Shown piece by piece: positions 11,762 to 53,802 of a stretch of DNA of 64,000 nt. The stretch is from Candidatus Eiseniibacteriota bacterium. Its GTDB lineage: Bacteria > Eisenbacteria > RBG-16-71-46 > CAIMUX01. The stretch spans positions 234,690-298,689 of the forward strand of contig JADJQY010000009.1 of assembly GCA_016712505.1 (NCBI GenBank). Reading direction: 5' to 3'. The notes beneath the pieces were generated by a model. That model did no database searches and had not been told where the DNA came from. It saw only the letters and a list, made by a program, of their open reading frames with translations. Numbering within the stretch: position 1 is the first letter of the stretch; each line of letters opens with the position of its first letter. Position numbers and translations under genes: made by a program.

Positions 11762-11790
11762 CTGCCCCCGGGGGGAGTGCGGCGGGCGCG
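11762..11790 (+). repeat. Palindromic repeat copy D (ctgcccccggggggag + GTGcggcggg tail)
   Basis: Member of a family of at least 9 copies in window. Confidence 0.7.
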
Positions 11791-12219
11791 CGGGGTGGAT
11801 CCGATTGCGGCGGCAGGTTGATGACGTGAGTTGCGGTGCACTGGCCGTTGGGTCTTGGCGCGGCGATGCTGCGCCGCGGCGGATCCGGGTCGCCGGGGCG
11901 ATGCGCCGCCGTCGCGGAGGCGCGTCGATCGTGGAAACGCGGGCGCGGTCCAGCTGTGGCCGCAACGAATTCCGAATCTTCGTGCGAAAAACTGGTTGAC
12001 CACTTTTCCAACGACGCGATGCGTCCTCGCGCAATCGGCTTCGTATCCGCCTCGTGCCGCGATCGCGTGACCGCTCGCGCCCGAAAGCGCGCCACTCCTC
12101 GTTTCGAAACTCATTCGCCGATGTTCGTTGCGTGCGCGCGTGGAGAAGCCTGCGCGACGGGGGGCGCTATCGTTGCGTTGATGAGCAGGAAGTCTTCTTC
12201 ACGAACACGGAGGTGCCGC

Positions 12220-13710
12220 ATGCCGCTCGCACGTACTGAAGCCGAGAATCTCGAGATCGATCGCCCGACCGTCGCGCCAGATTCAGCGTCCTCTCTTGGC
12301 GCGACTCCACTCGCGCGCACACGACGCGTGGCGGAGCCCTCGGCCCTTTCAGACGCGGAACTGCTTCGATCGGTCGCCCGATGGGCCGCGCTCGAGCGCC
12401 GCACGACGGCGGAACTGCTCCGGCATCTGGCCGAGCTCGATCTACGACATTTGTACCTCGGCGCCGGCTGCGCCTCGACCTTTGCCTACTGCACCGAGCG
12501 GCTCCGCATGTCGGAGTCGGCCGCCTACCATCGCATCACCGCCGCGAGGCTCGGACGTCGCTTTCCCGAGCTGCTGGAGCGACTCGAGGCCTCCGACCTT
12601 CACCTGAGCGGCATCTGTCTGCTCGCGCCGGTGTTGACCGAGGCGAACCTCGCCGACTGGGTCGCGCGCGCGCGCGGTCAGTCGAAGCGCGCGATTGAGC
12701 GGATGCTGCAACGGGAACGAGAGACGGAGAGCGCGAAGGCGCACCTGCCGCGGGTCGACCCGGCCGGAGCGCTCTTCCGCGCGGCGATCGCGGGAGAGGG
12801 ACGCTCGGCCCCGATGGGTGGGCCCAAGGTGGACACGCAGAACGCAGAAGCGGCTCCGGCAGATCGGCTCGCAGTCGGGGACGCGGCTGCTGCCAGCTTC
12901 GTCCCGCGGGAGATCCGGGCTTCGGTCGTGCCTGGCCAGGAACATCGCACGCCCTCGGCGCGACAGGACCGAATCACGGTGACCGTCGATGCGGAGATGC
13001 ATGAGCTGATCGATCAGGCGCGGGACCTGGTGCGACACCGCAATCCCAGCGGGGATCTCGCGACCTTGCTGCGGCTCGCGCTGCGGACGCTGATCGCAGC
13101 GACCGAGCGGCGTCGGTTCGGGCTGCGGCCGAAGACGGAGAACGCGGGTGGCGTTGCTGCGGGTCCTGCCGAGGTGACTGTGGTGGCGACTGCTGCGGTG
13201 GCCTCCAGGGTGCCCCCGGAGGTGACTGCTGAGGTCGCTGCCGTGACGGCGCCGGCTACGGCCGCGAACCCTGCCTATCCGCGACGCAGGGCGCCGCGGC
13301 CGCAAGCACGGAACGCGGGCATCCGATCACGCTACATCCCGGCGGCCGTTCGCCGGGCGGTCTGGCAGCGCGATCGAGGGCGTTGCGCCTTCCGGTCACC
13401 CGATGGGCACCAGTGCGATGCCCGAGGGTTCCTGCAGTTCCATCACCTCGTTCCGTTCGCCCAGGGAGGCGCGCACACCGTGGAGAACCTCGCACTGCGC
13501 TGCGGACCCCACAATCGCTACGAGGCGAAAACGGACCTGGGCGGGATCGCCGTCCGGGTCGCGCGGGGCGACCGTGGGTGCATCCCGCACGGCGATCCGA
13601 CCGGCGAAAGCGATCGCCGAGTGGTGCTCGGCGTCCATACGATTGCGCTCTCCGCTCAACTCCCCGGGGGAGTTGGAGCCCAGGGAAGTCCGGGGAAAGG
13701 ACGAACGTGA
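12220..13710 (+). CDS. DUF222 domain + HNH endonuclease protein (REP13E12-family-like), paralog 1
   Basis: N-terminal 'ELLRHLAELDLRHLYLGAGCASTFAYCTERLRMSESAAYHRITAAR' (DUF222) and C-terminal 'CAFRSPDGHQCDARGFLQFHHLVPFAQGGAHTVENLALRCGPHNRYEA' HNH motif; GGAGG RBS 6 nt upstream of ATG. Confidence 0.8.
   Translation: MPLARTEAENLEIDRPTVAPDSASSLGATPLARTRRVAEPSALSDAELLRSVARWAALERRTTAELLRHLAELDLRHLYLGAGCASTFAYCTERLRMSESAAYHRITAARLGRRFPELLERLEASDLHLSGICLLAPVLTEANLADWVARARGQSKRAIERMLQRERETESAKAHLPRVDPAGALFRAAIAGEGRSAPMGGPKVDTQNAEAAPADRLAVGDAAAASFVPREIRASVVPGQEHRTPSARQDRITVTVDAEMHELIDQARDLVRHRNPSGDLATLLRLALRTLIAATERRRFGLRPKTENAGGVAAGPAEVTVVATAAVASRVPPEVTAEVAAVTAPATAANPAYPRRRAPRPQARNAGIRSRYIPAAVRRAVWQRDRGRCAFRSPDGHQCDARGFLQFHHLVPFAQGGAHTVENLALRCGPHNRYEAKTDLGGIAVRVARGDRGCIPHGDPTGESDRRVVLGVHTIALSAQLPGGVGAQGSPGKGRT
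13657..13700 (+). repeat. Palindromic repeat copy G (caactcccc-g-ggggagttg, 19-nt near-perfect palindrome) at 3' end of HNH gene 1
   Basis: Read directly; followed by 'gagcccagggaagt' resembling intron 5' region. Confidence 0.7.
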
Positions 13711-13836
13711 GTCGCGGGTGAGGCCAGGAGCCTACGTGCTGGATCCTCCTGGTCGCGCCAACCCACTGTCTCCAGCCCCGGCACTCCACCCCGGCCATCG
13801 CGCCACGTGGCCCCTCGCCGCCTGCGCGCGCGCTTC

Positions 13837-14709: not shown

Positions 14710-14747
14710 CGCCTCGAGCGCACTGCGATCACCGGCTTCGACGCGAA

Positions 14748-15104: not shown

Positions 15105-15130
15105 CGAGGCTGATTCCTGCGCGCTCGGCT

Positions 15131-15850: not shown

Positions 15851-16101
15851 CGGTGCCTCCGGATTGCTGAGTCCGCTTCCGCGGCTGGTCCTGCGACTTG
15901 CGACCAGCATCAGATCGCTCCTGACACGAGTCAAGATAGTTTCCTGGAAATTTCCGGCGTTCTTAGTATTCACTCCGACCTGCTATATAATATATTGTTT
16001 AATATATAGTTAGCCGGTCCCCATGCGCACTTCATTGGTGCGATCGTCGGTATCAAAGCGGGGCCGAAAGGCTCGGCGAGCGGGCAGGGGGACGAGGCCC
16101 C

Positions 16102-20544: not shown

Positions 20545-20566
20545 GGTGAACTTCCCCCGGGGGCAG
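20545..20566 (+). repeat. Palindromic repeat copy A (gaacttcccccgggggcag) forming 5' exon junction of group II intron
   Basis: Immediately followed by GTGTGCG (group II 5' consensus GUGYG). Confidence 0.7.
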
Positions 20567-22506
20567 TGTGCGCCAGGCAAAGCCTGGGAAGGGAGGATGG
20601 TGAGCCTCTGCGGCTCACTTGAAACTCATCGATAGCGACCCGGTGGGTCCGAGTCCCACCCGGCAAAGCTGGCCAGCAGCCGGAACCGAGTGTTGCGTGG
20701 TCCCGAGGCAACTCGGACTGCGAAGCGTACACAGGGAACGAGCAGGCCGTGTGATCGAGCCTCGAAATCGGGCACTTGCGGGAGCCGGCGCTCTACTGTC
20801 AAGCGACGGCAGCAGGTGGACGGTGATTGGCCTTCCGCCCACCTCCCGCCGGGGTCAAAGAGCAGGGCGTGCTCGTGCAAGGGTCGTCCAGGAACCTGGG
20901 AGATCCCGCCTCCTCCTCGCCTCGGGTGAGGCGCCAACGCCGAGGAAACGAAGGCTCTGGTGTGCGGAGTCGGGAAGTCAGAGTGCCTGCGTAGTACCGG
21001 AGAAAGCGGGGAACCGGACCCTTCCGGGACCCGCTGGAGGGAAGGCGGGCGCCGGATCATGGAACCGATGGAAGGAAAGACGCATGGGAACTCTGAGTCC
21101 CCGCAACGTCTCAACGACACTCCAACGGATAGCGGACATGGCCCGGGAATCTCCGGACCGAGTCTTCACCAGCATCCACCATGCGGTGGATCTCGAGCTT
21201 CTGCGGGAAGCGTACCGGCGCACGCGAAAGGACGGGGCAGTAGGGGTAGACGGGCAAGGGTCGGAAACGTTTGCGGCGAACTTGGAGCAGAACCTCCGGT
21301 CCCTCCGCGATCGGCTCAAGCTCGGCACCTACCATGCACCGCCGGTGCGCCGAGTGCACATCCCAAAGGGAGACGGGGCGAAGACGCGCCCGATCGGCAT
21401 CCCGACCTTCGAGGACAAGGTACTTCAAAGGGCGGTGACCATGGTGTTGGAAGCGATCTACGAGCAGGACTTCAAGGACTGCTCCTATGGCTTCCGCCCC
21501 GAACGGTCAGCTCATCAGGCACTGGAAGAGATCTTTCAACGCATGATGAAGATGCACGGCGGGTGGGTGATCGAACTCGACATCGAGAAGTTCTTCGACC
21601 GACTCGACCACCGGAAGCTGCGGGAATTTCTGGACCAAAGGGTGCGTGACGGTGTGCTACGCCGCGCTCTCGACAAGTGGTTGAAAGCGGGGGTTCTGGA
21701 AGAGGAACGGCTGAGTCGCCCTCGGGAAGGAACCCCACAGGGAGGCGTGATCTCTCCGCTTCTCGCCAACGTCTACCTTCATGAAGTGCTCGACCGATGG
21801 TTCCTGGAGCAGATCGTGCCCAGGCTGCGAGGCAACTCCTTCCTGGTTCGGTACGCCGATGATGCCATCCTGGTCTTCTCCTCGGAGGCGGACGCTCGCC
21901 GGGTGCTCGCGGTTCTAGCCCAGCGGTTCAATCGCTTCGGCCTGACCCTGCATCCGGAGAAGACCCGACTGGTTCGGTTCCTCTGTCCACCCTACTTGCG
22001 AAAGGAACGACTCCTGCCTCGCGATGGTGGACCGGAGAGCTTCGACTTCCTCGGCTTCACCCACTACTGGGCGAAGTCGCAGCGAGGCCGGTGGTTGGTG
22101 AAGAAGAAGACCGCGAGTGAGCGTCTTCGGCAGGCCCTCAAGCGGGTCTCTGCCTGGTGCCGACGCGACCGACACCAGAAAGTCGCCTGGCAACACGGTC
22201 GACTGGTTCGAAAGATCCTCGGTCACTTTGCCTACTATGGCGTCACCGGGAACGATCCGCAGCTCTCGCGCTTTCGTGACCGGGTGACCCGCATCTGGCA
22301 ACAGTGGCTGAGTCGCCGATCCCAATCGACCCCCATGCCGTGGGACCGCTTTCACCGCCTGCTCGATCGGTACCCTCTACCGATGCCGCGGATCGTACAC
22401 AGGGTGGGTCACGCAGCCAACCCATGACCGAGGAGCCGGATGCGCGAATCGCGCACGTCCGGATCTGTGGGGGGGGGGCGCCCGCGGGGGTGGCCCCTAT
22501 CCCGAT
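20566..22506 (+). mobile_element. Group II intron (~1.9 kb) with ORF in domain IV
   Basis: 5' end GTGTGCG; 34-nt domain V 'GAGCCGGAUGCGCGAAUCGCGCACGUCCGGAUCU' (AGC triad, AC bulge) at ~22433..22466; DVI-like hairpin with bulged A and ...gat 3' end; boundaries +/- few nt. Confidence 0.7.
21084..22427 (+). CDS. Group II intron-encoded reverse transcriptase/maturase (RT + X domains, no HNH/En domain)
   Basis: RT motifs 'RPIGIPTFEDKVLQ', 'FLVRYADDAILVF' (YADD), 'FLGFTHYW'; RBS GAAGGAAAG upstream of ATG. Confidence 0.9.
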   Translation: MGTLSPRNVSTTLQRIADMARESPDRVFTSIHHAVDLELLREAYRRTRKDGAVGVDGQGSETFAANLEQNLRSLRDRLKLGTYHAPPVRRVHIPKGDGAKTRPIGIPTFEDKVLQRAVTMVLEAIYEQDFKDCSYGFRPERSAHQALEEIFQRMMKMHGGWVIELDIEKFFDRLDHRKLREFLDQRVRDGVLRRALDKWLKAGVLEEERLSRPREGTPQGGVISPLLANVYLHEVLDRWFLEQIVPRLRGNSFLVRYADDAILVFSSEADARRVLAVLAQRFNRFGLTLHPEKTRLVRFLCPPYLRKERLLPRDGGPESFDFLGFTHYWAKSQRGRWLVKKKTASERLRQALKRVSAWCRRDRHQKVAWQHGRLVRKILGHFAYYGVTGNDPQLSRFRDRVTRIWQQWLSRRSQSTPMPWDRFHRLLDRYPLPMPRIVHRVGHAANP

Positions 22507-22523
22507 TCCGGGGGAAGTGCCTG

Positions 22524-30243: not shown

Positions 30244-30300
30244 GGGTGGTCGAACTGTCCCCGGGGGGAGTGTGCGGCGCGGCGACGATGGCTGCGGGCG
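30244..30300 (+). repeat. Palindromic repeat copy C (gaactgtccccggggggag + GTGTGCGGCG...GGTTGGATGGTCGAGC tail)
   Basis: Read directly; tail shares 'ggttggatSgtcgagc' with copies B and D. Confidence 0.7.
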
Positions 30301-30329
30301 GGTTGGATGGTCGAGCGGGCGGGAGGCGG

Positions 30330-30520
30330 GGGCGCGAGACGGGAGGCGCGAGGCGCGAGGCCGCGCGGGTGGCGGGACGTGAGGCGCGCGACGCGGGGCG
30401 CGGGGTGCGGGGCGCGCGGCGCGAGGCGCGGCGGCGCAGGCGGTTGGTAAGACGGGAGACGAGGCACGCGGGGCGAGGGCGACGGGAAAGCCGGGGAAGT
30501 GAAAGGTGAGTTGCGAGGAG
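30330..30520 (+). repeat. Cryptic purine/GC-rich simple repeat (gaggcgcg/ggcgcgg units)
   Basis: Degenerate tandem 'gaggcgcgaggcgcgaggccgcg...' tract upstream of HNH paralog 2. Confidence 0.6.
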
Positions 30521-30866
30521 TGAGGTGCGAGGGGTGAGAAGCTAGAGGGGAAAGGTGAGGCGCAAGGCGACGGGCGCAAGACGCGAGGCTTGCCGCGAAG
30601 TCCGTCGAGACGGCCGCAGAAAGTGAGTGTCGTGGCGATTTTGAGTTGACGGAGTCTGCGGATCAGCGTTCCGGACATTGCCGTGCGACCGCAGGACTGG
30701 TCGGTGATGCCGTCGGGTGGGACCACACGGGAGATCGCGTTGCTCTGGTCGCTCGCTGGTGCAACGGACCCAGTTCGTCGTGCCTTGGGCAACCCACAGG
30801 CTCGAAAGGAGCGGGCCTATCATTCCTGAAGCACGGTAGGTGAAGGGCAGCACGGGGAGGTTGCGC

Positions 30867-32354
30867 ATGATCGGAGGAAGAATGGAGCGATCGGAGCTGG
30901 ATTCGAGCGTTGATTCCCTGGTCGCGAATGGCCGGGAGTTGTCGTCACGCGGAGAGGTGGAACGCTTGGCCGATCACGACCTGATCCGTGCGGTCATCGC
31001 GCTTGCCGGGCGGGCGCGAGCGGTTACCGCCGAGTTGCTGGTGCACCTGGGCGAGCTGGATGCTCGTCGCCTGCACCTTGCCGCCGGGTGCGCATCGACC
31101 TTTGCGTACTGTATCGAAGTTCTCCGGATGTCTGAACCTGCCGCGTACCATCGCATCACCGCCGCCCGCGCTGCTCGGAAGTTCCCCGCGCTGGTGCGCC
31201 ATCTCCGGTCCGGGGAACTCCATCTGAGCGGCGTCTGCTTGCTCGCTCCTGTCCTGACCGAGGCGAACGTCGATCACTGGATCGCGCGGGCGCGCGGACA
31301 ATCGAAGCGCGCCCTCGAGCGACTCCTGGGTGCTTCGCAGGCTGCCCGCATGTCGGCCGCCCACGACACCGCCCGTGACGCCACGGCCAGAAAGGCGTCC
31401 GAAGAGGGGGCGACCGGCTCGGACTCCTCGGCCCTCATTGCTGGGGTGGAGGCGACAGCGGGCGACCGCGGGGAGCGAGCTGAGCAGCAGGTTCGACCTG
31501 GCCAAGTCGGACCAGAGCCAGCTCGCGCGCGCGACGCTCGCGATCGGAGCGACTGGGACGACGGAGGTAACGGAGCTGGGTCGCGAGAGCAGGCCGCCGC
31601 GGTGAAGGTCGGTGCCGGCTCCTCGGCTGTGGCGCCGCTACGCGCGCTGCGTGACCTGCGCGTGCCGGTAGATCCTGAGTTCCTCGATCTGCTCGATGCC
31701 GCACGCGACCTCGCTCGGCATCGCAATCCCTCGGGTGACCTGACGACCTTGCTGCGCCTCGCCCTTCAGGCGCTGATCCAGCAGACGGAGTCACGGCGGT
31801 GCGGCCGCGCGGTGACGGCGACGAAAGGCGAGCCACCGAGCGAAACGCCGAGGCAAGAAGAGGCTTCCGCCCGTGGAGATTCGGTCGCTGCGGTGAGTGT
31901 CCAGCGTGATGTTGCCGGATCACCGCCTCGCGCCGCGACGGAACCCTCCGGTATCACTCGGGCTTGTCCTCAGGTTCACCCGTCGCGGTCCCGCTACATC
32001 CCTGTTGCCGTCCGACGCGAAGTATGGCGACGCGACGGCGCTCGCTGCGCCTTCGTCGCGGAGGACGGCCGACGCTGCACGTCGCGAGCCTTCCTCGAGT
32101 TTCATCACCTGGTGCCGTTCGCTCTCCGCGGCGACCACTCCGTTCCGAACCTCGCCCTCCGCTGCCAACCGCACAACAAGTACGAAGCGGAACTCGCGTT
32201 CGACCTGGGTGCACAGCGGACGCGCGAACTTCCCCCGGGGGGAGTGTGCGGCGGGCAAAGCCCGGGAAGTTGGGATGTCGAGCCCCCAAGGCTCGCTTGT
32301 GGCGCAGCGACGGCGACTCGAGACCCCGCGGCGGCGCTCCTGGCTTTCGCTTGA
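30867..32354 (+). CDS. DUF222 domain + HNH endonuclease protein, paralog 2
   Basis: Same N- and C-terminal blocks as paralog 1 ('HLGELDARRLHLAAGCASTFAYCIEVLRMSEPAAYHRITAAR', 'CAFVAEDGRRCTSRAFLEFHHLVPFALRGDHSVPNLALRCQPHNKYEA'); 3' end of ORF reads through palindrome/intron-like repeat B. Confidence 0.8.
   Translation: MIGGRMERSELDSSVDSLVANGRELSSRGEVERLADHDLIRAVIALAGRARAVTAELLVHLGELDARRLHLAAGCASTFAYCIEVLRMSEPAAYHRITAARAARKFPALVRHLRSGELHLSGVCLLAPVLTEANVDHWIARARGQSKRALERLLGASQAARMSAAHDTARDATARKASEEGATGSDSSALIAGVEATAGDRGERAEQQVRPGQVGPEPARARDARDRSDWDDGGNGAGSREQAAAVKVGAGSSAVAPLRALRDLRVPVDPEFLDLLDAARDLARHRNPSGDLTTLLRLALQALIQQTESRRCGRAVTATKGEPPSETPRQEEASARGDSVAAVSVQRDVAGSPPRAATEPSGITRACPQVHPSRSRYIPVAVRREVWRRDGARCAFVAEDGRRCTSRAFLEFHHLVPFALRGDHSVPNLALRCQPHNKYEAELAFDLGAQRTRELPPGGVCGGQSPGSWDVEPPRLACGAATATRDPAAALLAFA
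32226..32300 (+). repeat. Palindromic repeat copy B followed by ~75 nt closely matching the group II intron 5' end
   Basis: 'gtgtgcggcgggcaaagcccgggaagttgggatgtcgagcc...ggctcgcttg' vs intron 'gtgtgcgccaggcaaagcctgggaagggaggatggtgagcc...ggctcacttg'. Confidence 0.7.
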
Positions 32355-40060: not shown

Positions 40061-40080
40061 CCGCAAAGGAGACCGCTTCC

Positions 40081-41303: not shown

Positions 41304-41349
41304 CGCGAACCACTTGCCTCACCGGGCGGCTGAACCCGGCCGGTATGCC

Positions 41350-42299: not shown

Positions 42300-42305
42300 C
42301 CGAGG

Positions 42306-45410: not shown

Positions 45411-45441
45411 TGGCGAATTCCTGTCCTTCCGGCGGCGGAGC

Positions 45442-47019: not shown

Positions 47020-47022
47020 GGT

Positions 47023-48684
47023 TTACGCTCCGCCCACCGTCACGATACGAATCAGTGCTCCCGGGAGCAAGACCGAGACGAAGCGCCCTACCCAGCGAAA
47101 ACCGATTCCGGCCGGGCGAAGCACGGGGGTGAGGCGGTGGGTCGGCTTGCTCGGTCGGACCTGTACCGGTGACGCCGGGTCGATGGCCGGAGAGGGGTCG
47201 CCCGGGATGGCCTGATCGTTCCGCAGGTGTCCGAGGGCGGCCATGATCGGGATGATGGTCAGCGCCATGAGCAGGGAGATGATCTGCGCCGCGGTGATGG
47301 TGATCGCCTGGTCGCGGAAGATCTGGCCCGCGATCCCTTCGACGAAGATGATCGGGAGGAACACCGCCACCGTGGTGGCGGTCGAACCGGTGACCGGAAC
47401 TGCCACCTCGTTGGTCCCGTCGAGTGTGGCCTGCCACACTCCCTTCCCCTGCGCGCGGTGGCGCGCGATCGCTTCCAGCACCACGATGGCATTGTCCATC
47501 ATGTTGCCGACCCCGAGGGCCAGACCCCCGAGCGACATGATGTTCAGCGTCACTCCGAGCTGCTGCATGACCAGGAAGGTCGCGACGATGGAGATCGGGA
47601 TGGTCGTCGCGGTGATCAGGGTGCTCCGTCGATCCTTGAGGAAGAGATAGAGCACGATGACCGCCAGGAGACCGCCCTGGATCGCGTTCGCCTTGACCTC
47701 GTCGACCGCGCTCTCGATGAAGGTCGACTGGTCGAAGAGAATCTCGGTGCCGACTCCTTTGGGTAGAGTCTCCTCCAGGCGCTTCAGCTTGGCCTTGACC
47801 CGGCGGGCCACTTCGACGGTGTTGGCATCCCCTTCCTTGAAGAGGGCGATCTCGACCGCTTCCTCGCCGTGCACCCGGGTGATGACGTCGCGATCTTTGT
47901 ATCCGCGGTGGATCTCGGAGACATCGGCCAGGGTGACGCGACGCCCCTCCTGTTCGATCAGGACGGTGCGTCCGATCTCGTCCGCGTCGGCGAACTCATT
48001 CAAGGTGCGGACCAGGAACTCGGCGTCGCGGTCGCGCAGCGATCCGCCGGAAGCGTTGATGTTCTGGCTGGCGAGGAAGTTGTTCACCGCGGAGATCGGG
48101 ATGCCCAGGAGGGCGAGCTTCCCCTCATCGACCTGAACCTGGATCTCTTCCTCGAGGCCTCCCTTGATTCGGGCGGAGGCCACGCCGTCGATCGATTCCA
48201 GTTCCTTCTTCACGATCCGATCGGCGAGGTAGCGGAGCGTGACCAGGTCCTTGTCCCCATGCAGACCGAGCCTGAGCACCGGGTCGAGGTTGGGGTCGTA
48301 GCGGAGCAGGACCGGCGGCTGGATTCCGTCCGGCAGGTTGATCAGATCGATCTTCTCCCGTACGTCGAGGGCGGCGTAGTCCATGTCGGTGTTCCAGGCG
48401 AACTCGAGCGTGATCTCGGAGACGCCGGATCGGGAGACCGAGCGCAGGTGGCGTAGCCCCTGAACCACCGCCACCGACTGTTCGAGCGGTTCGGTGACCA
48501 GGTTCTCGATCTCCGCCGGTGCGGCATCGGGGTACTCGGTACGCAGGGTCAGCGAGGGGTAGGAGATGTCCGGCAGGAGGTTCCAGGGAAGGCGCCAGAG
48601 TGAGACCCAGCCGAAGAGGAGCGCCGCGATGGTGACCATGGTCACGGTGACCGGGCGTGTCATGGAGAAGCCGACGATTTTCAC
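47023..48684 (-). CDS. RND efflux permease, N-terminal half (TM1-6 + PN1/PN2)
   Basis: 'VKIVGFSMTRPVTVTMVTIAALLFG' AcrB-type N-terminus; GTG start with AGGAG RBS; ends at TAA in cytoplasmic TM6-TM7 linker. Confidence 0.8.
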   Translation of the reverse strand: MKIVGFSMTRPVTVTMVTIAALLFGWVSLWRLPWNLLPDISYPSLTLRTEYPDAAPAEIENLVTEPLEQSVAVVQGLRHLRSVSRSGVSEITLEFAWNTDMDYAALDVREKIDLINLPDGIQPPVLLRYDPNLDPVLRLGLHGDKDLVTLRYLADRIVKKELESIDGVASARIKGGLEEEIQVQVDEGKLALLGIPISAVNNFLASQNINASGGSLRDRDAEFLVRTLNEFADADEIGRTVLIEQEGRRVTLADVSEIHRGYKDRDVITRVHGEEAVEIALFKEGDANTVEVARRVKAKLKRLEETLPKGVGTEILFDQSTFIESAVDEVKANAIQGGLLAVIVLYLFLKDRRSTLITATTIPISIVATFLVMQQLGVTLNIMSLGGLALGVGNMMDNAIVVLEAIARHRAQGKGVWQATLDGTNEVAVPVTGSTATTVAVFLPIIFVEGIAGQIFRDQAITITAAQIISLLMALTIIPIMAALGHLRNDQAIPGDPSPAIDPASPVQVRPSKPTHRLTPVLRPAGIGFRWVGRFVSVLLPGALIRIVTVGGA

Positions 48685-48826
48685 CTGCGCTCCTGTGGTT
48701 GGTTGGCGCCACCCGAGGTGGCGATCGTCTGGTTCACCGCCGTTCGGTGCACGACGAGATGACGGGCCGGACAGCGCTTTGTGCGCGACCCCCCCGGGGC
48801 GCGCCCGTGCCGCGGCCCGATCGCGC

Positions 48827-50161
48827 CTATTGCGTCTCCCGCGCGGCCGAGGTGGAGTCGGCGGCTGCCTTGCGGACTTCGCGGAACTTCGAGCCATTAC
48901 GCAGAGCGCCATGCCCGACCGCGACCACCCGGTCTCCCGCCTCGATGCCGGAACTGATCTCGATCCAGTTGCCGTCCACTGCGCCGGTCAGCACCGGAAG
49001 TTTGAGTACGCTGTCGGCGACCGCTTTCCAGACGTAGTTCTCGCCCCCTTCGATCACCACCGCGCGCTTGGGCAGTACGCGCACGTCCTCGTGAACTGCG
49101 GTGGGGAGCTTTACCCGCACGAACGATCCGGGTCGGAGGGCGGCACCTTCGGCCGTGACGCGGCAGGTGACCTTGATGGTGCCGGTGCGGTCGTCCACCA
49201 CCGGCGAGACGCGCAGGATCGCGCCGCGCACGTCCCGGTCGGGGTCGGTGTCCGGGCTGATCAGCACTTCCTGTTCCGGGCGGAGCCGGCGGACCTCACG
49301 CTCGGGCAGGTGAATCGCGGCGAGCAGGGGATCGGGGTCGACGATCTGGAACAGCGGAGTCCCCATGGTGACGTTCTGTCCCCGGTCGATCGTGCGTCGT
49401 GCGATCTGTCCGGCGAAGGGAGCGGTGATGCGGGTGTAGTCGAGATTGAGTTGTGCCGTCTTGCGCGAGGCTTCGGTCTGTTCCCAGGCCGACTGGGCGT
49501 CGGAGAGATCCTTGTCGCTGGCCAGCTGTTTGCCGTGGAGGGCCTTGACCCGATCGAAATCCGAAGCCAGCTTGCGTGTCCGGGCCGTCGCTTCTTCCAG
49601 AGCTACGGCCTGCGCGTCGCTCTCGAGGCGCGCAAGGACCTGGCCCTCTTTGACCCAGTCGCCTTCTTCGACCCGTAGTTCGACGATTTGCCCGGAGGCC
49701 TTGGAGAGGATCTCGGCCTTGCGCTCCGCCTCCAGAGTGGCGGTCGAACCGAGGTAGGTGGGGAGGTCGCGGACCTCGACGCTCGCCAGCTCGACCGGGA
49801 CCGGCTCCTCCTCGGCCTTCTCGTCTTTCTTGTTCTTGTTGAGGAAGGCGAAGGGGGACTTCTTGTCGGACCCTTTCTTGTCGTGTTTCGCGTTCGGTTG
49901 GTTCGTACCGGAGCCGGAGGTGTCGGCCACGACGGTCGAGTCGGCCGCGTTGGCCACCGCGGGGCTCGACGACTTGCGCTCACAGGCCTGGAGGCAGATG
50001 AGTCCCAGGGCAAGGGCGAGGAGGAGGTGTGCCGGTTGTCGGATACGGAGAACCTGCCCCTTGGGAAGGACATTCGGGCGGTCACCGATCCGCGGATGGT
50101 GCTCGATGGGACTGCGGTCGCGCGAACCGTGCGCGCACGAGCGGGGGCTGGTTGGAATCAT
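48827..50161 (-). CDS. RND efflux membrane-fusion (periplasmic adaptor) protein, HlyD/MdtA-like
   Basis: N-terminal TM anchor, coiled-coil and beta-barrel MFP blocks; AAGGAG RBS 8 nt upstream of ATG. Confidence 0.85.
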   Translation of the reverse strand: MIPTSPRSCAHGSRDRSPIEHHPRIGDRPNVLPKGQVLRIRQPAHLLLALALGLICLQACERKSSSPAVANAADSTVVADTSGSGTNQPNAKHDKKGSDKKSPFAFLNKNKKDEKAEEEPVPVELASVEVRDLPTYLGSTATLEAERKAEILSKASGQIVELRVEEGDWVKEGQVLARLESDAQAVALEEATARTRKLASDFDRVKALHGKQLASDKDLSDAQSAWEQTEASRKTAQLNLDYTRITAPFAGQIARRTIDRGQNVTMGTPLFQIVDPDPLLAAIHLPEREVRRLRPEQEVLISPDTDPDRDVRGAILRVSPVVDDRTGTIKVTCRVTAEGAALRPGSFVRVKLPTAVHEDVRVLPKRAVVIEGGENYVWKAVADSVLKLPVLTGAVDGNWIEISSGIEAGDRVVAVGHGALRNGSKFREVRKAAADSTSAARETQ

Positions 50162-50404
50162 CCCGGTAACTCCTTTGACCTGGTCGGACGTGGGCTCGAC
50201 AGCCGATCGATCGTTCTTCAACGTTCGTGCGCCGGCCTGCAGTACGGCCCCCCCGCCGACGAGGTTCCTCGCGAATTTGCGTCCCTGCAGAATTGTTCGC
50301 TCCGGGCCCCTGTTGCTCTCCGTTGCACGGGTGCCTGTGCCGGTGCCAGTGCCAGCGTTGGTGTTGGCAGCGCCCGCGCAGGTGACTGCACCGGTGCGGG
50401 TGTC

Positions 50405-50575
50405 GGCACCAGCTCAGGTGTCGGCATGGGCTCGGGAGTCGGTACCGGCTCTGCTGTCGGCGTGGGCTCGGGAGTCGGTACCGGCTCTGCTGTCGGCATG
50501 GGCTCGGGAGTCGGTACCGGCTCTGTCGTCGGCATGGACTCGGGAGTCGTCACCGGTTCGGGACTCTGCGTCGGC
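50405..50575 (+). repeat. Tandem 36-nt repeat (about 4 units; encodes PT/PEP-rich 12-aa repeats on minus strand)
   Basis: 'gtcggcatgggctcgggagtcggtaccggctctgct' repeated with 1-3 substitutions. Confidence 0.85.
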
Positions 50576-51008
50576 GCGGGATCGCGGCCGTGCTGTCCGA
50601 ACCGTAACCGGACCCGATCGCTGCCTTGACCGGAATGTACCTCATTGGGCGTTGGCTGTCCCCCCTGCAGGGGAGCTCGGGGTGGCGTCCAGCTCAGTTG
50701 AAGGTCGGCCGGCATCGGGGAGAGAGGCCAGGGCGCGGCGCGGGAGTCTGCCCGGCGTTGCGCAGCTCGGCGGCAGGCACGGGCGCGCCGGCTGTGTGGC
50801 CGTGCCCGGTGGTCCGGCCCTCTTGCGGGTCGGGCGGTTTCGGGTACCGCGGCGCGCGATGGGCCGGAGCTGGGTCAGAGACTGCTCGTGGTGTCCTCCA
50901 CCGTGAGTTCCGAGGAGCGAGTTGGGCGTCGTCTGGCGCTTAGGGCGAGCGAGCTCGCGATCTTCGACCGGGAGGTTCGCGAGCTGCCATTGCGAGTGAA
51001 CCGTGGGG

Positions 51009-51040
51009 CAACTCTCCCCGGGGAGAGAGTCGGCGGCGGG
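51009..51040 (+). repeat. Palindromic repeat copy H (caactctccccggggagagagt + cggcggcggg tail)
   Basis: Near-perfect 22-nt palindrome. Confidence 0.7.
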
Positions 51041-51519
51041 ATCGTCGATGAGAGGTCATCCGCGGGGCGGGGGGGGGGACGAGCCTGCGCCGACGATGCG
51101 GACCCGGTTGTCGCTGCCGTGCGCGGGTGATGGCGTCGAGGCCCGCGCGAAGAAAGGTACAACGACGCGGGGTCTGGTCTTGACCGCATTCGCGAAAGGT
51201 GGCGTTGGCGAGCAGGCGCACGCACGTGGTCGGCCTACGAGACGCAATGGAGCTTGCGGTGAGGGTTCGCTCGCGTCGAGGGCCGATTCGAGGGAAGGCA
51301 GCATGGGATCGGCGAGGCGTTCCGCGCGCACGGCGATTCGTCGAAGTGGGGAGATATCCTCGGGCGGGGGGAAGGCGCCCTCGCAGAGAGCCGATGCTGC
51401 GAGGAACCGGCAGCGTGACTCTTGCGCCTCCGGGAACCGCGTCGGAGCGGTTGGGGACTCGGTCTGGAGGAGTGGAGTTGGCTCGGCGTTGGGGTGGGAC
51501 GGCGTGGCGTGAGCGAGAT

Positions 51520-51730
51520 CCTGCGTTGGTGCGCTGGTGCGCTGGTGCGTTGGTGTGCCGGTGCCCCGGTGTTCGGGTGCGCGGGCGCGCGGGCGCGCGG
51601 GTGTGCGGGTGCGCCGGCGCGCGGGGGCGAGGGTGTGCCGGTGCGACTGCGCGTCGGTGCGTTGGCCTAGAGGTGCGGCGGTATTGCGGCGCGACGGTGC
51701 GTCCACCTGGAGGTGCGACCGCGCAGAGGT
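51520..51730 (+). repeat. Cryptic G-rich heptamer repeat tract ((C/T)GGTGCG)n
   Basis: 'gcgctggtgcgctggtgcgttggtgtgccggtgccccggtgttcgggtgcgcgggcgcgcggg...' degenerate tandem units. Confidence 0.7.
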
Positions 51731-52131
51731 GCGACGCTGTGGCAGCACGAAGGGTCCCCTCGGTCCCGACGCTACAGGGGGGCGGCGTGCGACCGGCGGT
51801 CCGCGTCGAGAGAAAGTGTGGCTGCGGAGAAAAACGGATTGACCGTTCTACGAAGGGTACGAAGCAGCGTTGCGGAACGGATCTCTCGCCTCGCGCGTGA
51901 TCGCACCTGGAGCCCTTAGGGGAGATCCGCGGCCAGAGGTGTCGATTCGAAGCGTCTGTTCAGGCGCTGGGTGCTCCCGGCCGCTCGCTGGCCCTCCGGA
52001 AGTGGCGGAGTATCGTTCGTTCGAGGCGTGAGGTGCGCGCATTGCACGCGACACGCGACACGCGACACGTTGCGCGGAGCGCAGGCGCGTGGAATCAGCG
52101 AACGAACCTCAACGAAGGCACGGAGGCCGAT

Positions 52132-53802
52132 ATGCGCAGCAACATGACAGAACTGGTGTCCCAGGTTCCCCAGACGACGGATCTTGCGTCGCTCAGCGAC
52201 GTGGAGGTCCTTCGCGCGGTTGCCGGTTGGGCACGGGCAGAGCGGCGCGTCACGGCGGAGCTGCTCCGGCATCTGGGCGAGCTGGACGCGCGGCGTCTCT
52301 ATCTCGGGGCCGGTTGCTCGTCGACCTTTGCCTACTGCACCGAGATCCTCCGCATGTCGGAGCCCGCTGCCTACCACCGGATCACCGCCGCCCGCGCCGG
52401 GCGCCGGTTCCCGGAGCTGCTCGCGCGGCTCGCCGCGGGGGAACTGCATCTGAGTGCGATCTGCCTGCTCGCGTCGGAGTTGACGGAAGAGAATGTGGCC
52501 TCGTGGATCGCGCGCGCGTGCGGGCAGTCCAAGCGTGCGGTCGAGCGGATGCTGTTTGATGAGAGGCGGGGGCAGAGTGTCGCGCCGGTGATGGCAGTGG
52601 GCGGTGCGGTGGGCGAGGTCGTGGGCGATGCGGCCGTCGGTGCGGGTGTTGTCGCTCGTGGTGCGGCGGTCGACGGGGATGGTCGTTCTGGGCAGACGGC
52701 GTTTGCCGAAGCTCGGCCCGGTCCGGGGAGTGTCGCGCAGGGCGGGCGAACTTCCGGGCAGGGCTCGTTGCTGACCGATGGCGCGATGGCCGATTCGGTA
52801 TCGGCCTCCGGCCCGGGTTCCGAGGCCGCGTCGCTCCCGGATCGCGCGGCGCCCGCGCCCGTCGGTCCCGCGCGCGCCGGCGCGGCGTTCAGCCTGCCGA
52901 AGCTCTCGTTCGTGGCCGATCGCGAGCTTCAAGATCTGCTCGCCCGGGCGCGGGATCTCGCGAGTCACAGCAATCCGAATGGAGATCTCGCGACGCTGCT
53001 TCGGCTCGCGCTCCGGGCGTTGATTGCGAGTACGGAGCGGCGGCGGTTCGGGCAGCGGGTCTCGGAGCGGGCTGCGCGGTCGGACGGGGGGCAGACGACG
53101 GGGCGGTCGCTGGTGCGGTCGACGGAGCGCGCTGTGCACCGTGCGGTGGCGCATTTCAGGTCGGCGGTGTCGCCGGAGGTCGGGAAGGCTTTGTCGCCGG
53201 AGGCAGGGACGGCTGTGTCGCCGGAGGCGGGGCCGATCGGCTCGCCGAGCGCGCCGTCGCAAAGCGGAGGAGGTCACGCGAGAGCGACGGGGCGTCGCCG
53301 TGCTCCGCGCTGGCGTTCGCGCTACATCCCGATCGCCGTGCGTCGTGCGGTCTGGCAGCGCGATGGCGGGCGGTGCGCGTTCATGTCGCGCCAAGGGCAT
53401 CGTTGCGGCACGCGAGCCTTCCTCCAGTTCCATCACCTGATCCCGTTCGCTCAGGGTGGGGCGCACACGGTGGAGAACCTCGCCCTGCGCTGCGGCGCGC
53501 ACAATCGGTACGAGGCGCGGAGCAGCGTCGGGTCGGCGGACCGGTCGGTAGACCGGGCCGTTGTCCGGTCGGCAGGCGAGGATGGCTGGTTGGAGATCGG
53601 CCCGCTCGAACCGGCAGGCGCTACGAGTCCCTCGTCTGACTTGGCGTCTGGTTGCGTTCCGCGAGGAAGCTCCGCGGACCCGCGCAACTCTCCCCGGGGG
53701 GAGGAGTGTGGGCTAGGCGCGGTGGTCGCGCAGGCCGTCGTGTGGGAGGCCGGGTGCCATGCTGGGGTGCCGGGTCGGCAGCGTGTGGGTTCACCGGCCT
53801 AG
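52132..53802 (+). CDS. DUF222 domain + HNH endonuclease protein, paralog 3
   Basis: 'HLGELDARRLYLGAGCSSTFAYCTEILRMSEPAAYHRITAAR' and 'CAFMSRQGHRCGTRAFLQFHHLIPFAQGGAHTVENLALRCGAHNRYEA'; GGAGG RBS. Confidence 0.8.
   Translation: MRSNMTELVSQVPQTTDLASLSDVEVLRAVAGWARAERRVTAELLRHLGELDARRLYLGAGCSSTFAYCTEILRMSEPAAYHRITAARAGRRFPELLARLAAGELHLSAICLLASELTEENVASWIARACGQSKRAVERMLFDERRGQSVAPVMAVGGAVGEVVGDAAVGAGVVARGAAVDGDGRSGQTAFAEARPGPGSVAQGGRTSGQGSLLTDGAMADSVSASGPGSEAASLPDRAAPAPVGPARAGAAFSLPKLSFVADRELQDLLARARDLASHSNPNGDLATLLRLALRALIASTERRRFGQRVSERAARSDGGQTTGRSLVRSTERAVHRAVAHFRSAVSPEVGKALSPEAGTAVSPEAGPIGSPSAPSQSGGGHARATGRRRAPRWRSRYIPIAVRRAVWQRDGGRCAFMSRQGHRCGTRAFLQFHHLIPFAQGGAHTVENLALRCGAHNRYEARSSVGSADRSVDRAVVRSAGEDGWLEIGPLEPAGATSPSSDLASGCVPRGSSADPRNSPRGEECGLGAVVAQAVVWEAGCHAGVPGRQRVGSPA
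53685..53712 (+). repeat. Palindromic repeat copy E (gcaactctccccgggggg aggagtgtggg) at 3' end of HNH paralog 3
   Basis: Read directly. Confidence 0.65.

What the first reader, a model, noticed from the sequence alone, without database searches (positions are those of the whole stretch)
11762..53712. Three ~2 kb REP13E12-like elements (DUF222+HNH genes) each bounded by the same palindromic repeat
Three paralogous DUF222-HNH genes (12220..13710, 30867..32354, 52132..53802) lie within 42 kb. They share a conserved leader ('gcacggagg...ATG'). Each has divergent but homologous upstream regions with cryptic GC-rich simple repeats. Each is flanked upstream and downstream by a copy of the 'aacTYtccccggggggag' palindrome followed by a GTGYG-led tail, all in direct orientation. 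This fits a mobile or recombinogenic ~2-2.7 kb unit like the REP13E12 repeats of Mycobacterium, which encode DUF222/HNH proteins and serve as phage attB sites. Here the density is unusually high and the host appears non-actinobacterial. Direct terminal repeats could mediate excision or serve as integration hotspots.
Basis: partly seen in the sequence, partly recalled or inferred. Interest (0 to 1): 0.75.

Follow-up and report, generated by a model that had tools for sequence, protein, structure and literature searches.

The report
Palindrome-flanked HNH nuclease genes, intron-invaded
Three diverged copies of a DNA-cutting (HNH) gene in an Eisenbacteria genome are each bracketed by the same 19-base palindrome, a layout also found in relatives from several other MAG lineages, and the "GTGYG tails" after the palindromes are, where they can be identified, the front end of a group II intron that homes to that palindrome.

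Summary
Three intact paralogous genes (45-54% aa identity) sit at the stated coordinates. The palindrome AACTYYCCCCGGGGRRAGT occurs at 8 sites in the window against 0.23 expected matches; six of them bracket the three genes. Pfam DUF222 is not detected. The proteins have a helical N-terminal domain with a ParB/KorB-like DNA-binding fold, a putative ribbon-helix-helix motif and an HNH nuclease.

Nucleotide similarity among the three units is confined to CDS blocks, the palindrome and a few short motifs. The "GTGYG tail" is the 5' end of a group II intron. An intact En-less intron (20568-22506) starts on the base after a solo palindrome, and its EBS1 loop pairs with the palindrome's 3' arm. In-register 5' stubs follow two other palindromes. 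A sister element from a metagenome has intron remnants after both of its palindromes.

Distant homologues in Acidobacteriota, Myxococcota and Bdellovibrionota MAGs carry lineage-specific palindromes at the same two positions.

Best reading (about 0.45): a compact selfish unit whose nuclease recognises its own flanking palindrome, secondarily parasitised by a palindrome-homing intron. Mobility itself is inferred, not shown.

The parts
11759..11778 (+). P1, upstream palindrome of unit E1 (AAGCTGCCCCCGGGGGGAGT)
11996..12001 (+). A-rich + TTGACC box of E1 (promoter -35-like), conserved in all lineages between the upstream palindrome and the ORF
   Evidence: function inferred
12220..13710 (+). E1 gene, 496 aa. 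Helical ParB/KorB-like domain (aa 45-175), putative RHH motif (aa ~250-300), HNH (aa 370-448; HNH motif at nt 13438-13515), then an unconstrained tail
13657..13675 (+). P2, downstream palindrome of E1 (perfect: CAACTCCCCGGGGGAGTTG), inside the ORF tail
13676..13712 (+). Tail after P2 that resembles intron positions 6-37 in register (a decayed intron 5' stub)
   Evidence: 1 of 500 shuffles reach the score; weak
20549..20567 (+). P3, solo palindrome that forms the 5' exon of the intron; its last 6 nt (GGCAGT) are IBS1
20568..22506 (+). Intact group II intron: 5' GTGCG at 20568, D1-D4 RNA 20650-20864, EBS1 loop ACTGTC at 20795-20800, RT/maturase ORF 21084-22427 (no En domain), D5/D6 22431-22506
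22507..22519 (+). 3' exon TCCGGGGGAAGTG, a second copy of the right half of the palindrome
   Evidence: unexplained
30253..30271 (+). P4, upstream palindrome of unit E2. With its right flank it forms a 29-nt direct repeat (93%) with P5
   Evidence: D10
30318..30538 (+). G-rich simple repeats (GGCGCGA x17.6; GTGAGGTGCGAGGA x2.4) filling the space between P4 and the TTGAC box
30646..30651 (+). TTGACG box of E2
30867..32354 (+). E2 gene, 495 aa (HNH motif at nt 32100-32177)
   Evidence: (P0010)
32227..32245 (+). P5, downstream palindrome of E2, inside the ORF tail
32246..32320 (+). 5' stub of the group II intron, starting on the base after P5
   Evidence: D5, 77% over 95 nt; E 4.5e-15; 15.4 bits, E 0.02; 0 of 500 shuffles
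51010..51030 (+). P6, upstream palindrome of unit E3
51528..51645 (+). G-rich simple repeat GGTGCGCG x14.8 in the 0.8-kb filler between P6 and the TTGAC box
51839..51844 (+). TTGACC box of E3
52132..53802 (+). E3 gene, 556 aa (HNH motif at nt 53428-53505)
53686..53707 (+). P7, downstream palindrome of E3, inside the ORF tail
57195..57213 (+). P8, solo palindrome between convergent genes. It ends in GACAGT, a perfect complement of the resident intron's EBS1, and is unoccupied

Best explanation
Each unit is a compact, probably selfish gene cassette with the layout [palindrome] - TTGAC-type promoter box - 5' leader - gene - [same palindrome inside the last codons of the ORF]. The gene encodes a site-specific nuclease built from a ParB/KorB-like helix-turn-helix DNA-binding domain, a putative ribbon-helix-helix motif and an HNH catalytic domain.

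Inferred mechanism. The protein binds the 18-22 bp palindrome as a dimer and nicks or cuts there. The palindrome therefore acts both as the ends of the unit and as its genomic target. Spread would occur by cutting a solo palindrome and then either (a) repairing the break from a copy whose two flanking palindromes supply the homology, or (b) joining an excised fragment into the cut site. Either route regenerates a full palindrome on both sides. Solo palindromes (P3, P8) would be targets or deletion footprints.

Shown second layer. In this Eisenbacteria lineage an En-less group II intron has retargeted its EBS1 to the 3' arm of the palindrome and inserts on the base after it. One intact copy follows P3. 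Degraded 5' stubs follow P5 and P2. In a sister element (L122) remnants follow both palindromes. In L122 the filler begins with an internally deleted intron; whether any of the window's G-rich filler is intron-derived is only a possibility.

Status of each step. Shown: the anatomy, the positional conservation across lineages, the domain folds, purifying selection on the domains, the intron's identity and its pairing with the palindrome. Inferred: that the protein binds or cuts the palindrome, and that the unit is mobile.
For: (1) The palindrome is strongly over-represented: 8 sites in 64 kb against 0.23 expected matches. Six of the eight bracket the three HNH genes; none follows any of the other genes I called by codon-position GC.

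(2) The same architecture occurs in relatives at 30-40% aa identity from Acidobacteriota/Vicinamibacteria, Myxococcota and Bdellovibrionota MAGs. Matching upstream and downstream copies are seen in L003 (31-nt direct repeat), L009, L016, L024, L026, L036 and L124; downstream copies alone in L007, L011, L014, L019, L021, L025, L028, L029 and L034. Palindromes of at least 10 pairs occur in 12 of 40 downstream windows, against 31 of 625 background windows. ACT...AGT 16-21-mers are almost confined to that position.

(3) The palindrome sequence differs between lineages (CTYCCCCGGGGRAG, CTCCTCCCGGGAGGAG, CTCGGTCCGGACCGAG, CCTTGGCTAGCCAAGG, TCCCCGGCGCCGGGGA), but the two copies of one unit match each other.

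(4) The layout is compact and IS-like. A TTGAC box follows the upstream palindrome by about 45-150 nt in the lineages where it was found (L003, L016, L026, L036, L124). The ORF runs through the downstream palindrome, and the stop codon falls 10-66 nt after the palindrome's start in at least 11 loci. The tail evolves neutrally (dN/dS 0.79) while the domains are constrained (0.16, 0.37 and 0.27).

(6) The window palindromes are not unusually stable as ssDNA hairpins; z-scores are near 0 to -1 except for P2. That favours a duplex protein site over a hairpin.

(7) Related gene segments at about 89-93% identity sit in non-syntenic contexts, both within one genome and between genomes (L001/L004, L002/L017). 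Many family members lie on contigs of 1-3 kb, as is typical of repeats.

(8) Intron layer. Rfam RF02005 scores 134.7 bits and RF00029 44 bits. The ORF has an RVT_1 domain (E 8e-38) and no En domain. The 5' end at 20568 is fixed by about 35 relatives that have unrelated 5' exons. EBS1 was verified by covariation with the 5' exon in more than 25 relatives; in the window it reads ACTGTC against GGCAGT. Stubs: P5, P2 and L122 on both sides (49.7 and 42.2 bits; 84-89% identity).
Against: There is no direct evidence that the protein binds or cuts the palindrome, and none for mobility. No empty site or presence/absence polymorphism was found. Eight metagenome contigs carrying one element (L124-L131) show the same neighbouring genes wherever their flanks overlap.

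The three window copies are old paralogues (45-54% aa, dS >1), so there has been no recent transposition here. Several family members lack any palindrome (for example L001, L002, L004, L022). In two of them homology stops at the CDS ends, which suggests gene conversion rather than movement of a palindrome-bounded unit.

Confidence: 0.45

Rival explanations
1. The gene is stationary and domesticated, with the palindromes as its own control elements. The upstream copy would be an operator for autoregulation through the HTH/RHH domains. The downstream copy would be a transcription or mRNA 3'-end hairpin. The three copies would be ancient duplications kept for a cellular role, for example a damage-induced nuclease like the SOS-induced 13E12 proteins of M. 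tuberculosis.
For: The paralogues are old and under purifying selection. There is no polymorphism evidence. RHH and ParB/KorB-type proteins are classic operator binders (established knowledge). The downstream palindrome sits at the 3' end of the transcript. Orthologous loci in different genomes keep the gene in place (L013/L024, L006/L023, L014/L028).
Against: The upstream palindrome lies 45-150 nt (460-1120 nt before the ATG in the window) upstream of the TTGAC box and does not overlap it. No U-tract terminator is detected in the one unit scanned (E1), and the hairpins are weak. It is unclear why an operator and a terminator should be the identical sequence and co-vary between lineages. The family is multi-copy within genomes, and near-identical segments occur at non-syntenic sites. 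Solo copies P3 and P8 have no gene.
Confidence: 0.25
2. One reading: these are REP13E12-type DUF222-HNH repeats, and their terminal direct repeats serve as phage attB sites or mediate excision and recombination.
For: It is a multi-copy HNH gene with an uncharacterised helical N-domain. Two of 59 relatives touch PF02720 (best E 1.9e-5). The M. tuberculosis 13E12 loci are recombination, gene-conversion and inversion hotspots of undefined function (PMC13061034, PMC13157036).
Against: PF02720 is not detected in the three proteins, nor in the top 120 hits of an N-domain profile search. There are no phage or plasmid relatives. No integrase or prophage lies adjacent. The 'tail' is intron sequence.
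Confidence: 0.1
3. The palindrome is primarily the homing site or by-product of the group II intron, or a generic genomic repeat. On this view its association with HNH genes is incidental.
For: Every palindrome in the window is followed by at least GTG or GCG. Three sites (P3, P5, P2) are followed by demonstrable intron sequence. The EBS1-IBS1 match is shown.
Against: Relatives in other lineages have the flanking palindromes with no intron sequence after them (L124, L009, L026, L003 and others). The roughly 35 intron relatives whose 5' junction could be read lie in unrelated 5' exons with no such palindrome. So the palindrome belongs to the HNH unit, and the intron adapted to it.
Confidence: 0.05
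4. An RNA-guided system of the IscB/HEARO type, in which the long conserved-position leader between the TTGAC box and the ATG encodes a guide RNA for the HNH protein.
For: NCBIfam IscB matches the HNH part (22-24 bits). A leader of 170-330 nt starts at a conserved TTGAC box, and in some lineages a -10-like hexamer abuts the ATG.
Against: The IscB hit is far below its cut-off (175 bits) and covers only the HNH part, with no RuvC. No HEARO or other Rfam hit appears at E<=10. The leaders are not conserved between relatives beyond about 15-45 nt before the ATG.
Confidence: 0.03

Closest known systems
REP13E12 / 13E12-repeat (DUF222-HNH) family of Mycobacterium tuberculosis
   Same: Multi-copy genes of about 1.4-2 kb that end in an HNH domain and begin with an uncharacterised helical domain. 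They are scattered in the chromosome. As of 2026 their function is undefined, and they are known as gene-conversion and inversion hotspots (PMC13061034, PMC13157036).
   Different: The Pfam DUF222 model does not match the three proteins and matches only 2 of 59 relatives. The host lineages differ (Eisenbacteria, Acidobacteriota, Myxococcota, Bdellovibrionota). The copies here are 45-54% identical rather than near-identical. In the 28 papers that mention 'DUF222' or similarly prefixed names and the 22 that mention REP13E12 I found no description of flanking palindromes, but I read passages from only four of them.
Free-standing HNH homing endonuclease genes
   Same: A single selfish ORF that encodes a sequence-specific HNH nuclease whose target is adjacent to or created by its own insertion site. 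Spread is by break repair.
   Different: Known examples are mostly in phages, introns or inteins and recognise asymmetric sites in conserved genes. Here the presumed site is an 18-22 bp perfect palindrome duplicated on both sides of a chromosomal intergenic cassette. The DNA-binding module is ParB/KorB-like. No homing has been demonstrated.
REP/RAYT (REPIN) systems and IS200/IS605 elements
   Same: A nuclease or transposase gene is bracketed by the short palindromes it is thought to act on. The palindrome sequence co-varies with the gene lineage, and solo palindromes occur elsewhere.
   Different: Those systems use HUH Y1 enzymes acting on ssDNA hairpins, and REPs are abundant genome-wide. Here the enzyme is HNH with a duplex-type HTH domain. 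The palindromes are rare (2 solo copies in 64 kb) and fold weakly.
Group IIC and IIC-attC introns (insertion after terminator or attC inverted repeats)
   Same: An En-less intron that inserts directly after an inverted-repeat motif belonging to another genetic element; multiple sites are used (PMC4424553).
   Different: This intron has an AGC (not CGC) D5 triad and long D1-D3. Its close relatives home into ordinary sequence-specific sites. Recognition here is explained by ordinary EBS1-IBS1 pairing with the palindrome arm, not by a stem-loop requirement.
ParB/KorB/Noc DNA-binding domains
   Different: No ParB N-terminal CTPase domain is present. The domain is fused to an HNH nuclease. Sequence similarity is undetectable.

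Membership tests
REP13E12 / DUF222-HNH | N-terminal Pfam DUF222 (PF02720) domain | tested here: not met
   No hit in E1, E2 or E3 at E<=0.01, nor at E<=10 on the N-terminal parts. Two of 59 relatives hit (best E 1.9e-5). None of the top 120 N-domain profile hits carries PF02720.
REP13E12 / DUF222-HNH | C-terminal HNH endonuclease domain | tested here: met
REP13E12 / DUF222-HNH | Dispersed multi-copy repeat of high nucleotide similarity | tested here: inconclusive
   Three copies lie within 42 kb, but only 67-80% nt identity in three CDS blocks and nothing alignable elsewhere except the palindrome.
REP13E12 / DUF222-HNH | Contains a phage (phiRv1-type) attB site | not testable with these tools
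   No prophage or integrase at the three loci. No relatives in the phage collection.
Group II intron (20568-22506) | 5' GUGYG and D1-D4 ribozyme structure | tested here: met
   RF02005 134.7 bits against a gathering score of 49. The 5' end is fixed by about 35 homologues. Own CM gives 84.4 bits.
Group II intron (20568-22506) | Domain V/VI at the 3' end | tested here: met
   RF00029 44 bits against a gathering score of 40, at 22431-22506.
Group II intron (20568-22506) | Reverse transcriptase/maturase ORF in domain IV | tested here: met
   RVT_1 E 8.4e-38. At least 402 confirmed metagenomic relatives; the 80 kept share 55-63% identity.
Group II intron (20568-22506) | EBS1-IBS1 pairing with the 5' exon | tested here: met
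   The loop aligned to 20795-20800 co-varies with the last 6 exon nt in more than 25 relatives. In the window ACTGTC pairs with GGCAGT (one G-U).
Class C (IIC) group II introns | En-less IEP and insertion directly after an inverted-repeat motif | tested here: met
   The IEP ends after the X/thumb region. The intron starts on the base after the palindrome.
Class C (IIC) group II introns | IIC ribozyme features (CGC triad in D5, short D1) | tested here: not met
   D5 reads GAGCCGG..., an AGC triad. D1-D3 is about 520 nt. The criterion itself comes from my own knowledge of IIC introns.
IscB / HEARO (omega-RNA-guided HNH-RuvC) | RuvC domain plus full-length IscB model | tested here: not met
   NF040563 scores 16-24 bits against a cut-off of 175, and only model positions 182-241 (the HNH part) match.
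IscB / HEARO (omega-RNA-guided HNH-RuvC) | HEARO/omega RNA upstream of the ORF | tested here: not met
   No Rfam hit at E<=10 near the genes. The leaders are not conserved.
REP/RAYT | HUH Y1 transposase gene | tested here: not met
   Only HNH was found by Pfam, NCBIfam and structure search.
REP/RAYT | Gene bracketed by lineage-specific palindromes | tested here: met
Homing endonuclease gene | Presence/absence polymorphism with an intact target at empty sites | not tested
NCBI MAG proteins could not be looked up.
Homing endonuclease gene | Nuclease cleaves the site next to its own gene | not testable with these tools
   Needs biochemistry.
ParB/KorB DNA-binding domain | HTH-containing helical fold that reads palindromes | tested here: inconclusive

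The most novel reading that the evidence does not exclude
Palindrome-bracketed HTH-RHH-HNH cassettes are a previously unrecognised class of autonomous selfish elements, present in Eisenbacteria and in Acidobacteriota, Myxococcota and Bdellovibrionota MAGs. Their nuclease recognises an 18-22 bp palindrome and re-creates it on both sides when it spreads. The mycobacterial 13E12 repeats would be the actinobacterial branch of the same principle, which would explain their recombination-hotspot behaviour. A sharper variant is that the En-less group II intron which homes onto the palindrome uses the cassette's HNH nuclease in trans as its missing endonuclease for target-primed reverse transcription.
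Probability: 0.3. Interest if true: 0.8.

Novelty: new variant of a known kind. Interest (0 to 1): 0.62.

Why it matters
HNH genes with a DUF222-like N-terminal domain are among the commonest "hypothetical/HNH endonuclease" annotations. In M. tuberculosis the 13E12 repeats are leading hotspots of gene conversion and large inversions, yet "lack defined biological function" (PMC13061034, 2026).

Three findings here turn an opaque annotation into a concrete hypothesis that can be tested in vitro: a conserved, lineage-specific palindrome at both ends of a sister family; a fold-level link of the N-domain to palindrome-reading ParB/KorB domains; and purifying selection on all three domains. The hypothesis is a palindrome-specific nuclease that marks its own borders.

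The nested group II intron is a clear natural case of an ordinary (non-IIC) En-less intron retargeted, through EBS1, to the terminal repeat of another element. It also warns annotators that "GTGYG after a hairpin" in high-GC genomes may be an intron stub.

Tried and rejected
(1) DUF222 membership. Pfam at E<=10 on the N-terminal parts gave nothing. A profile search with the N-domain found 641 proteins; none of the 120 listed carries PF02720.

(2) Homology of the upstream regions. blastn, MAFFT and local alignment against shuffles found only short boxes and low-complexity repeat.

(3) An intron-like shell around the HNH genes (ORF-swapped intron). There is no D5/D6 anywhere except 22431-22506 at E<=10. 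tblastn with the IEP finds no pseudogene remnants in the window.

(4) Intron stubs after every palindrome. A covariance model and shuffled alignments support only P5 and, weakly, P2. P1, P4, P6, P7 and P8 are not distinguishable from chance.

(5) The palindrome as a stable hairpin or terminator. The DNA folds are not better than shuffles, except for P2. No terminator-like site was found in the E1 unit, the only one scanned.

(6) A guide-RNA or conserved 5' leader. No conservation between relatives and no Rfam hit.

(7) Defence-system membership: PADLOC gave none. Phage or plasmid carriage: none. The one plasmid hit that I opened is an unrelated small HNH gene.

(8) Exact-protein look-ups of the MAG's own genes and of P0003 failed, so the rest of the 434.9-kb contig could not be read.

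(9) The afdb50 fold library was unavailable.

(10) tRNA or tmRNA as an attB candidate: none in the window.

Full report
OBSERVATION

The three ORFs exist at the stated coordinates: 12220-13710, 30867-32354 and 52132-53802, all on the + strand. They are paralogues with 45-54% amino-acid identity. Conservation is concentrated in an N-terminal block, a short central block and a C-terminal block.

The pattern AACTYTCCCCGGGGGGAG with up to 3 mismatches gives 11 matches at 7 sites, against 0.23 +/- 0.45 expected. An eighth, shorter and perfect copy, CAACTCCCCGGGGGAGTTG, lies at 13657-13675.

I call the copies P1 to P8:
- P1 11759-11778
- P2 13657-13675
- P3 20549-20567
- P4 30253-30271
- P5 32227-32245
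- P6 51010-51030
- P7 53686-53707
- P8 57195-57213

P1/P2, P4/P5 and P6/P7 bracket the three genes. P3 and P8 are not next to an HNH gene.

The host is a Candidatus Eisenbacteria MAG. The E1 protein is 100% identical to an NCBI entry named 'HNH endonuclease' on a 434,901-bp contig, and E2's counterpart is on the same contig.

WHAT DID NOT HOLD UP

- Pfam finds only a weak HNH match and no DUF222, even at E<=10 on the isolated N-terminal parts. Only 2 of 59 family members touch PF02720. None of the top 120 hits of an N-domain profile search carries it.
- All-against-all blastn shows that nucleotide similarity among the three units is confined to three CDS blocks plus the palindrome.
Any further similarity is low-complexity G-rich repeat.
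- The downstream palindromes lie inside the 3' tails of the ORFs, not beyond them.

THE 'GTGYG-LED TAIL' IS A GROUP II INTRON 5' END

Rfam finds a group II intron immediately after P3: D1-D4 at 20650-20864 (134.7 bits) and D5/D6 at 22431-22506 (44 bits). Its ORF has an RT domain (E 8e-38) and no endonuclease domain.

Eighty metagenomic relatives of the intron-encoded protein were fetched. In about 35 of them homology to the window begins exactly at 20568 (GTGCGCCAGGCRAAGCCTGGG...), with unrelated sequence upstream. So the intron starts on the base after the palindrome.

The hairpin loop aligned to window 20795-20800 co-varies with the last six exon bases in more than 25 relatives, which identifies it as EBS1. 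In the window it reads ACTGTC against the palindrome's GGCAGT. It is a perfect complement of P8's GACAGT, and P8 is unoccupied. The intron therefore reads the 3' arm of the palindrome by ordinary base pairing.

It is not a class C intron by ribozyme features, because the D5 triad is AGC. The literature restricts insertion after terminator or attC motifs to class C (PMC4424553).

Evidence for intron stubs at the other palindromes is uneven:
- The 75 nt after P5 are a 5' stub. With the palindrome they are 77% identical to the intron start over 95 nt. A covariance model of the intron's first 105 positions scores 15.4 bits, E 0.02, starting exactly at 32246. No shuffle out of 500 reaches the alignment score.
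- The tail after P2 matches intron positions 6-37 in register (1 of 500 shuffles).
- The tails after P1, P4, P6, P7 and P8 are not distinguishable from chance beyond GTG(Y)G.

A sister element from a Logan metagenome (L122; its gene is 76-80% identical to E3 in the conserved blocks) makes the picture explicit.
- Its upstream palindrome is followed by intron positions 1-100 (89% identical to the window intron, palindrome included). These are joined by an internal deletion to the domain IV/IEP-start region (82% identical), and then by G/T-rich simple sequence.
- Its downstream palindrome is followed by intron positions 1-113 (84% identical, palindrome included).
- Both stubs share a G1-to-C change that should kill splicing. 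They are therefore copies of one another, or homogenised by gene conversion, rather than independent retrohoming events.

So in L122 the filler between the upstream palindrome and the promoter box begins with a decayed intron. That the same holds for any of the window's filler is inference only.

THE PALINDROME BELONGS TO THE HNH GENE, NOT TO THE INTRON

Forty loci encoding relatives at 30-40% identity were fetched from MAGs labelled Acidobacteriota/Vicinamibacteria, Myxococcota/Polyangia and Bdellovibrionota, often with several per genome.

Many carry a perfect 16-26 bp palindrome 50-190 nt after the HNH motif. A subset carries the same palindrome 140-550 nt before the ORF:
- L003: a 31-nt direct repeat
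- L009: TTTCGTTCCGGAACGAAA twice
- L016
- L024 and L026: ACCTTGGCTAGCCAAGGT
- L036: ATCCCCGGCGCCGGGGAT
- L124, a closer Logan-metagenome relative rather than one of the forty: CAACTCCTCCCGGGAGGAGTTG, 235 nt before the ATG and again in the ORF tail

Palindromes of at least 10 pairs occur in 12 of 40 downstream windows, against 31 of 625 control windows from the same loci. ACT...AGT palindromes are almost confined to that position. The common form is AACT-N4-CCGG-N4-AGTT. The inner bases differ between lineages, but the two copies of one unit agree. None of these loci has intron sequence after the palindrome, and the intron relatives whose 5' junction could be read are not preceded by such palindromes.

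ANATOMY OF THE BASIC UNIT

The unit is [palindrome] - 45-150 nt - A-rich/TTGAC box - 170-330 nt leader - ORF - [palindrome], with the stop codon 10-66 nt after the start of the second palindrome. In L026 the stop is the TAG at the palindrome's centre.

In the window the upstream palindrome is pushed 220-810 nt away from the TTGAC box by G-rich filler (43-49% G).

THE PROTEIN

AlphaFold2 with a 59-sequence alignment gives three confident domains (pLDDT >90) joined by disordered linkers: residues 45-175, about 255-300 and 370-448.
- The central two-helix motif gives weak ribbon-helix-helix hints.

Comparing E1 with a 68%-identical relative (L121), dN/dS is 0.16 (N-domain), 0.37 (central motif) and 0.27 (HNH). 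It is 0.7-1.06 in the linkers and in the tail that contains the palindrome. The genes are therefore functional, and the palindrome is a DNA-level feature.

As single-stranded DNA the window palindromes do not fold better than shuffles, except P2. Together with a ParB/KorB-type domain, this favours a duplex recognition site for a dimer. The compensatory look of the variation would equally fit a hairpin.

INTERPRETATION

I read each unit as a compact selfish cassette whose nuclease recognises the palindrome that marks both of its borders. Spread would occur by cleavage of a solo palindrome, followed by repair from, or ligation of, a palindrome-bounded copy. Either would regenerate the palindrome on both sides. 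P3 and P8 would be targets or deletion footprints. An intron lineage has then specialised on this multi-copy, presumably harmless, site.

- Shown: the anatomy, the cross-lineage positional conservation, the co-variation of the two copies, the domain folds, the selection pattern, the intron's identity and its pairing with the palindrome.
- Inferred: binding and cleavage at the palindrome, and mobility.
- Against: no empty site or polymorphism was found. The window copies are ancient (dS >1). Some relatives lack palindromes and show homology confined to the CDS (L001/L004, L002/L017), which looks like gene conversion. The rightward extension of the direct repeat (29 nt in E2, 31 nt in L003, more than 100 nt in L122) is not cleanly predicted.

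The main rival is a stationary gene with an operator and a 3' hairpin. It is weakened because the upstream copy does not overlap the promoter box, because no terminator signal was found in the one unit scanned, and because the two elements are identical and lineage-specific.

COMPARISON WITH KNOWN SYSTEMS

The nearest named family is the mycobacterial 13E12/DUF222-HNH repeat. Its function is still undefined, and it is a hotspot of gene conversion and inversions (PMC13061034, PMC13157036). Membership fails the Pfam test here, so I treat these genes as a sister family.

Functionally the closest analogies are free-standing HNH homing endonuclease genes and REP/RAYT or IS200/605-type 'nuclease bracketed by its own palindromes'. 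The enzyme type differs from the latter, and homing is unproven. IscB/HEARO was excluded. No defence-system, phage or plasmid link was found. In the passages I read from four of the papers that mention DUF222 or REP13E12 I found no description of palindrome-bracketed DUF222-like HNH genes.

VERDICT

The finding is a new variant of a known kind: an HNH selfish-gene or 13E12-like repeat with a nested group II intron. It is moderately to highly interesting because it offers a testable mechanism for a very common but unexplained gene family.

Noticed in passing
window 22507-22519: The 3' exon of the intact intron is TCCGGGGGAAGTG, a second right half of the palindrome. Without the intron the site would read AACTTCCCCCGG-GGGCAGTT-CCGGGGGAAGT, an 11-bp stem with the intron inserted in its loop. 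This may be a relic of an imprecise earlier event at this palindrome.
   Followed up: partly
window 57195-57213: Solo palindrome P8 lies between convergent genes (sigma-54 activator 54461-57004 on +, PEGA-domain protein 57346-58890 on -). It ends in GACAGT, a perfect complement of the resident intron's EBS1 (ACUGUC), yet it is unoccupied, so it is a candidate empty homing site.
   Followed up: partly
L122 1-240 and 2324-2457: Both intron remnants that flank the sister HNH element share a G1-to-C change at the intron's first base (CTGCG instead of GTGCG). That implies DNA-level duplication or gene conversion of [palindrome + stub], not two independent retrohoming events.
   Followed up: partly
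window 11440-11758: The 320 nt upstream of P1 are 49% G and contain a short tandem repeat (ACGCGAGACG x3.5 at 11525-11559) and a TTGACGGAG motif at 11731-11739, identical to the E2 promoter-box motif. This could be the remnant of an older unit abutting E1. Alignment support is limited to low-complexity sequence.
   Followed up: partly
L024 5019-5263; L003 5527-5636; L019 2953-4958: Tandem or hairpin repeats sit next to the flanking palindromes in other lineages as well: a 13-nt unit spanning about 245 nt between two upstream palindromes in L024, two 43-nt hairpin repeats before the upstream palindrome in L003, and four copies of GGCGAAGCTTCTGCTTCGCC around the L019 gene. Repeat expansion beside the palindrome seems to recur.
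   Followed up: no
L001/L004 and L002/L017: Segments of about 0.4-0.8 kb at 89-93% identity occur at non-syntenic sites. L001 and L004 are in the same Acidobacteriota genome; L002 and L017 are in different genomes. Homology ends at or within the CDS and there is no palindrome. This suggests gene conversion, or mobility of the coding sequence alone, in some branches.
   Followed up: no
L003, L009, L013, L016, L024, L026, L124 (6-8 nt before the ATG): In the Acidobacteriota and Myxococcota loci, and in L124, a TANNNT hexamer lies 6-8 nt before the start codon (for example CGTATAATGGGCTATG in L016). That suggests leaderless transcripts in addition to the distal TTGAC box. The window copies instead have a TATCRTT box plus a GGAGG SD.
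   Followed up: no
window 50355-50570: An 18-nt (6-codon) tandem repeat with at least 9 copies lies inside an ORF with no Pfam match (49758-50906, +), just upstream of P6 and overlapping the start of the HlyD-family gene on the opposite strand. Which ORF is real was not resolved.
   Followed up: no
window 1-64000: Cumulative GC skew rises across the whole window. The three HNH genes, all eight palindromes and the intron are co-oriented with the G-rich (presumed leading) strand. The three highest skew values (0.15-0.19) coincide with the G-rich fillers at 10-12, 30-32 and 50-52 kb.
   Followed up: no
window 42306-50221 (- strand): There is an RND-type efflux operon: large transporter ORFs at 42306-45410, 45442-47019 and 47023-48912, and a HlyD-family adaptor at 48827-50221. 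Internal direct repeats lie between the transporter genes (family D4). It is unrelated to the finding.
   Followed up: no
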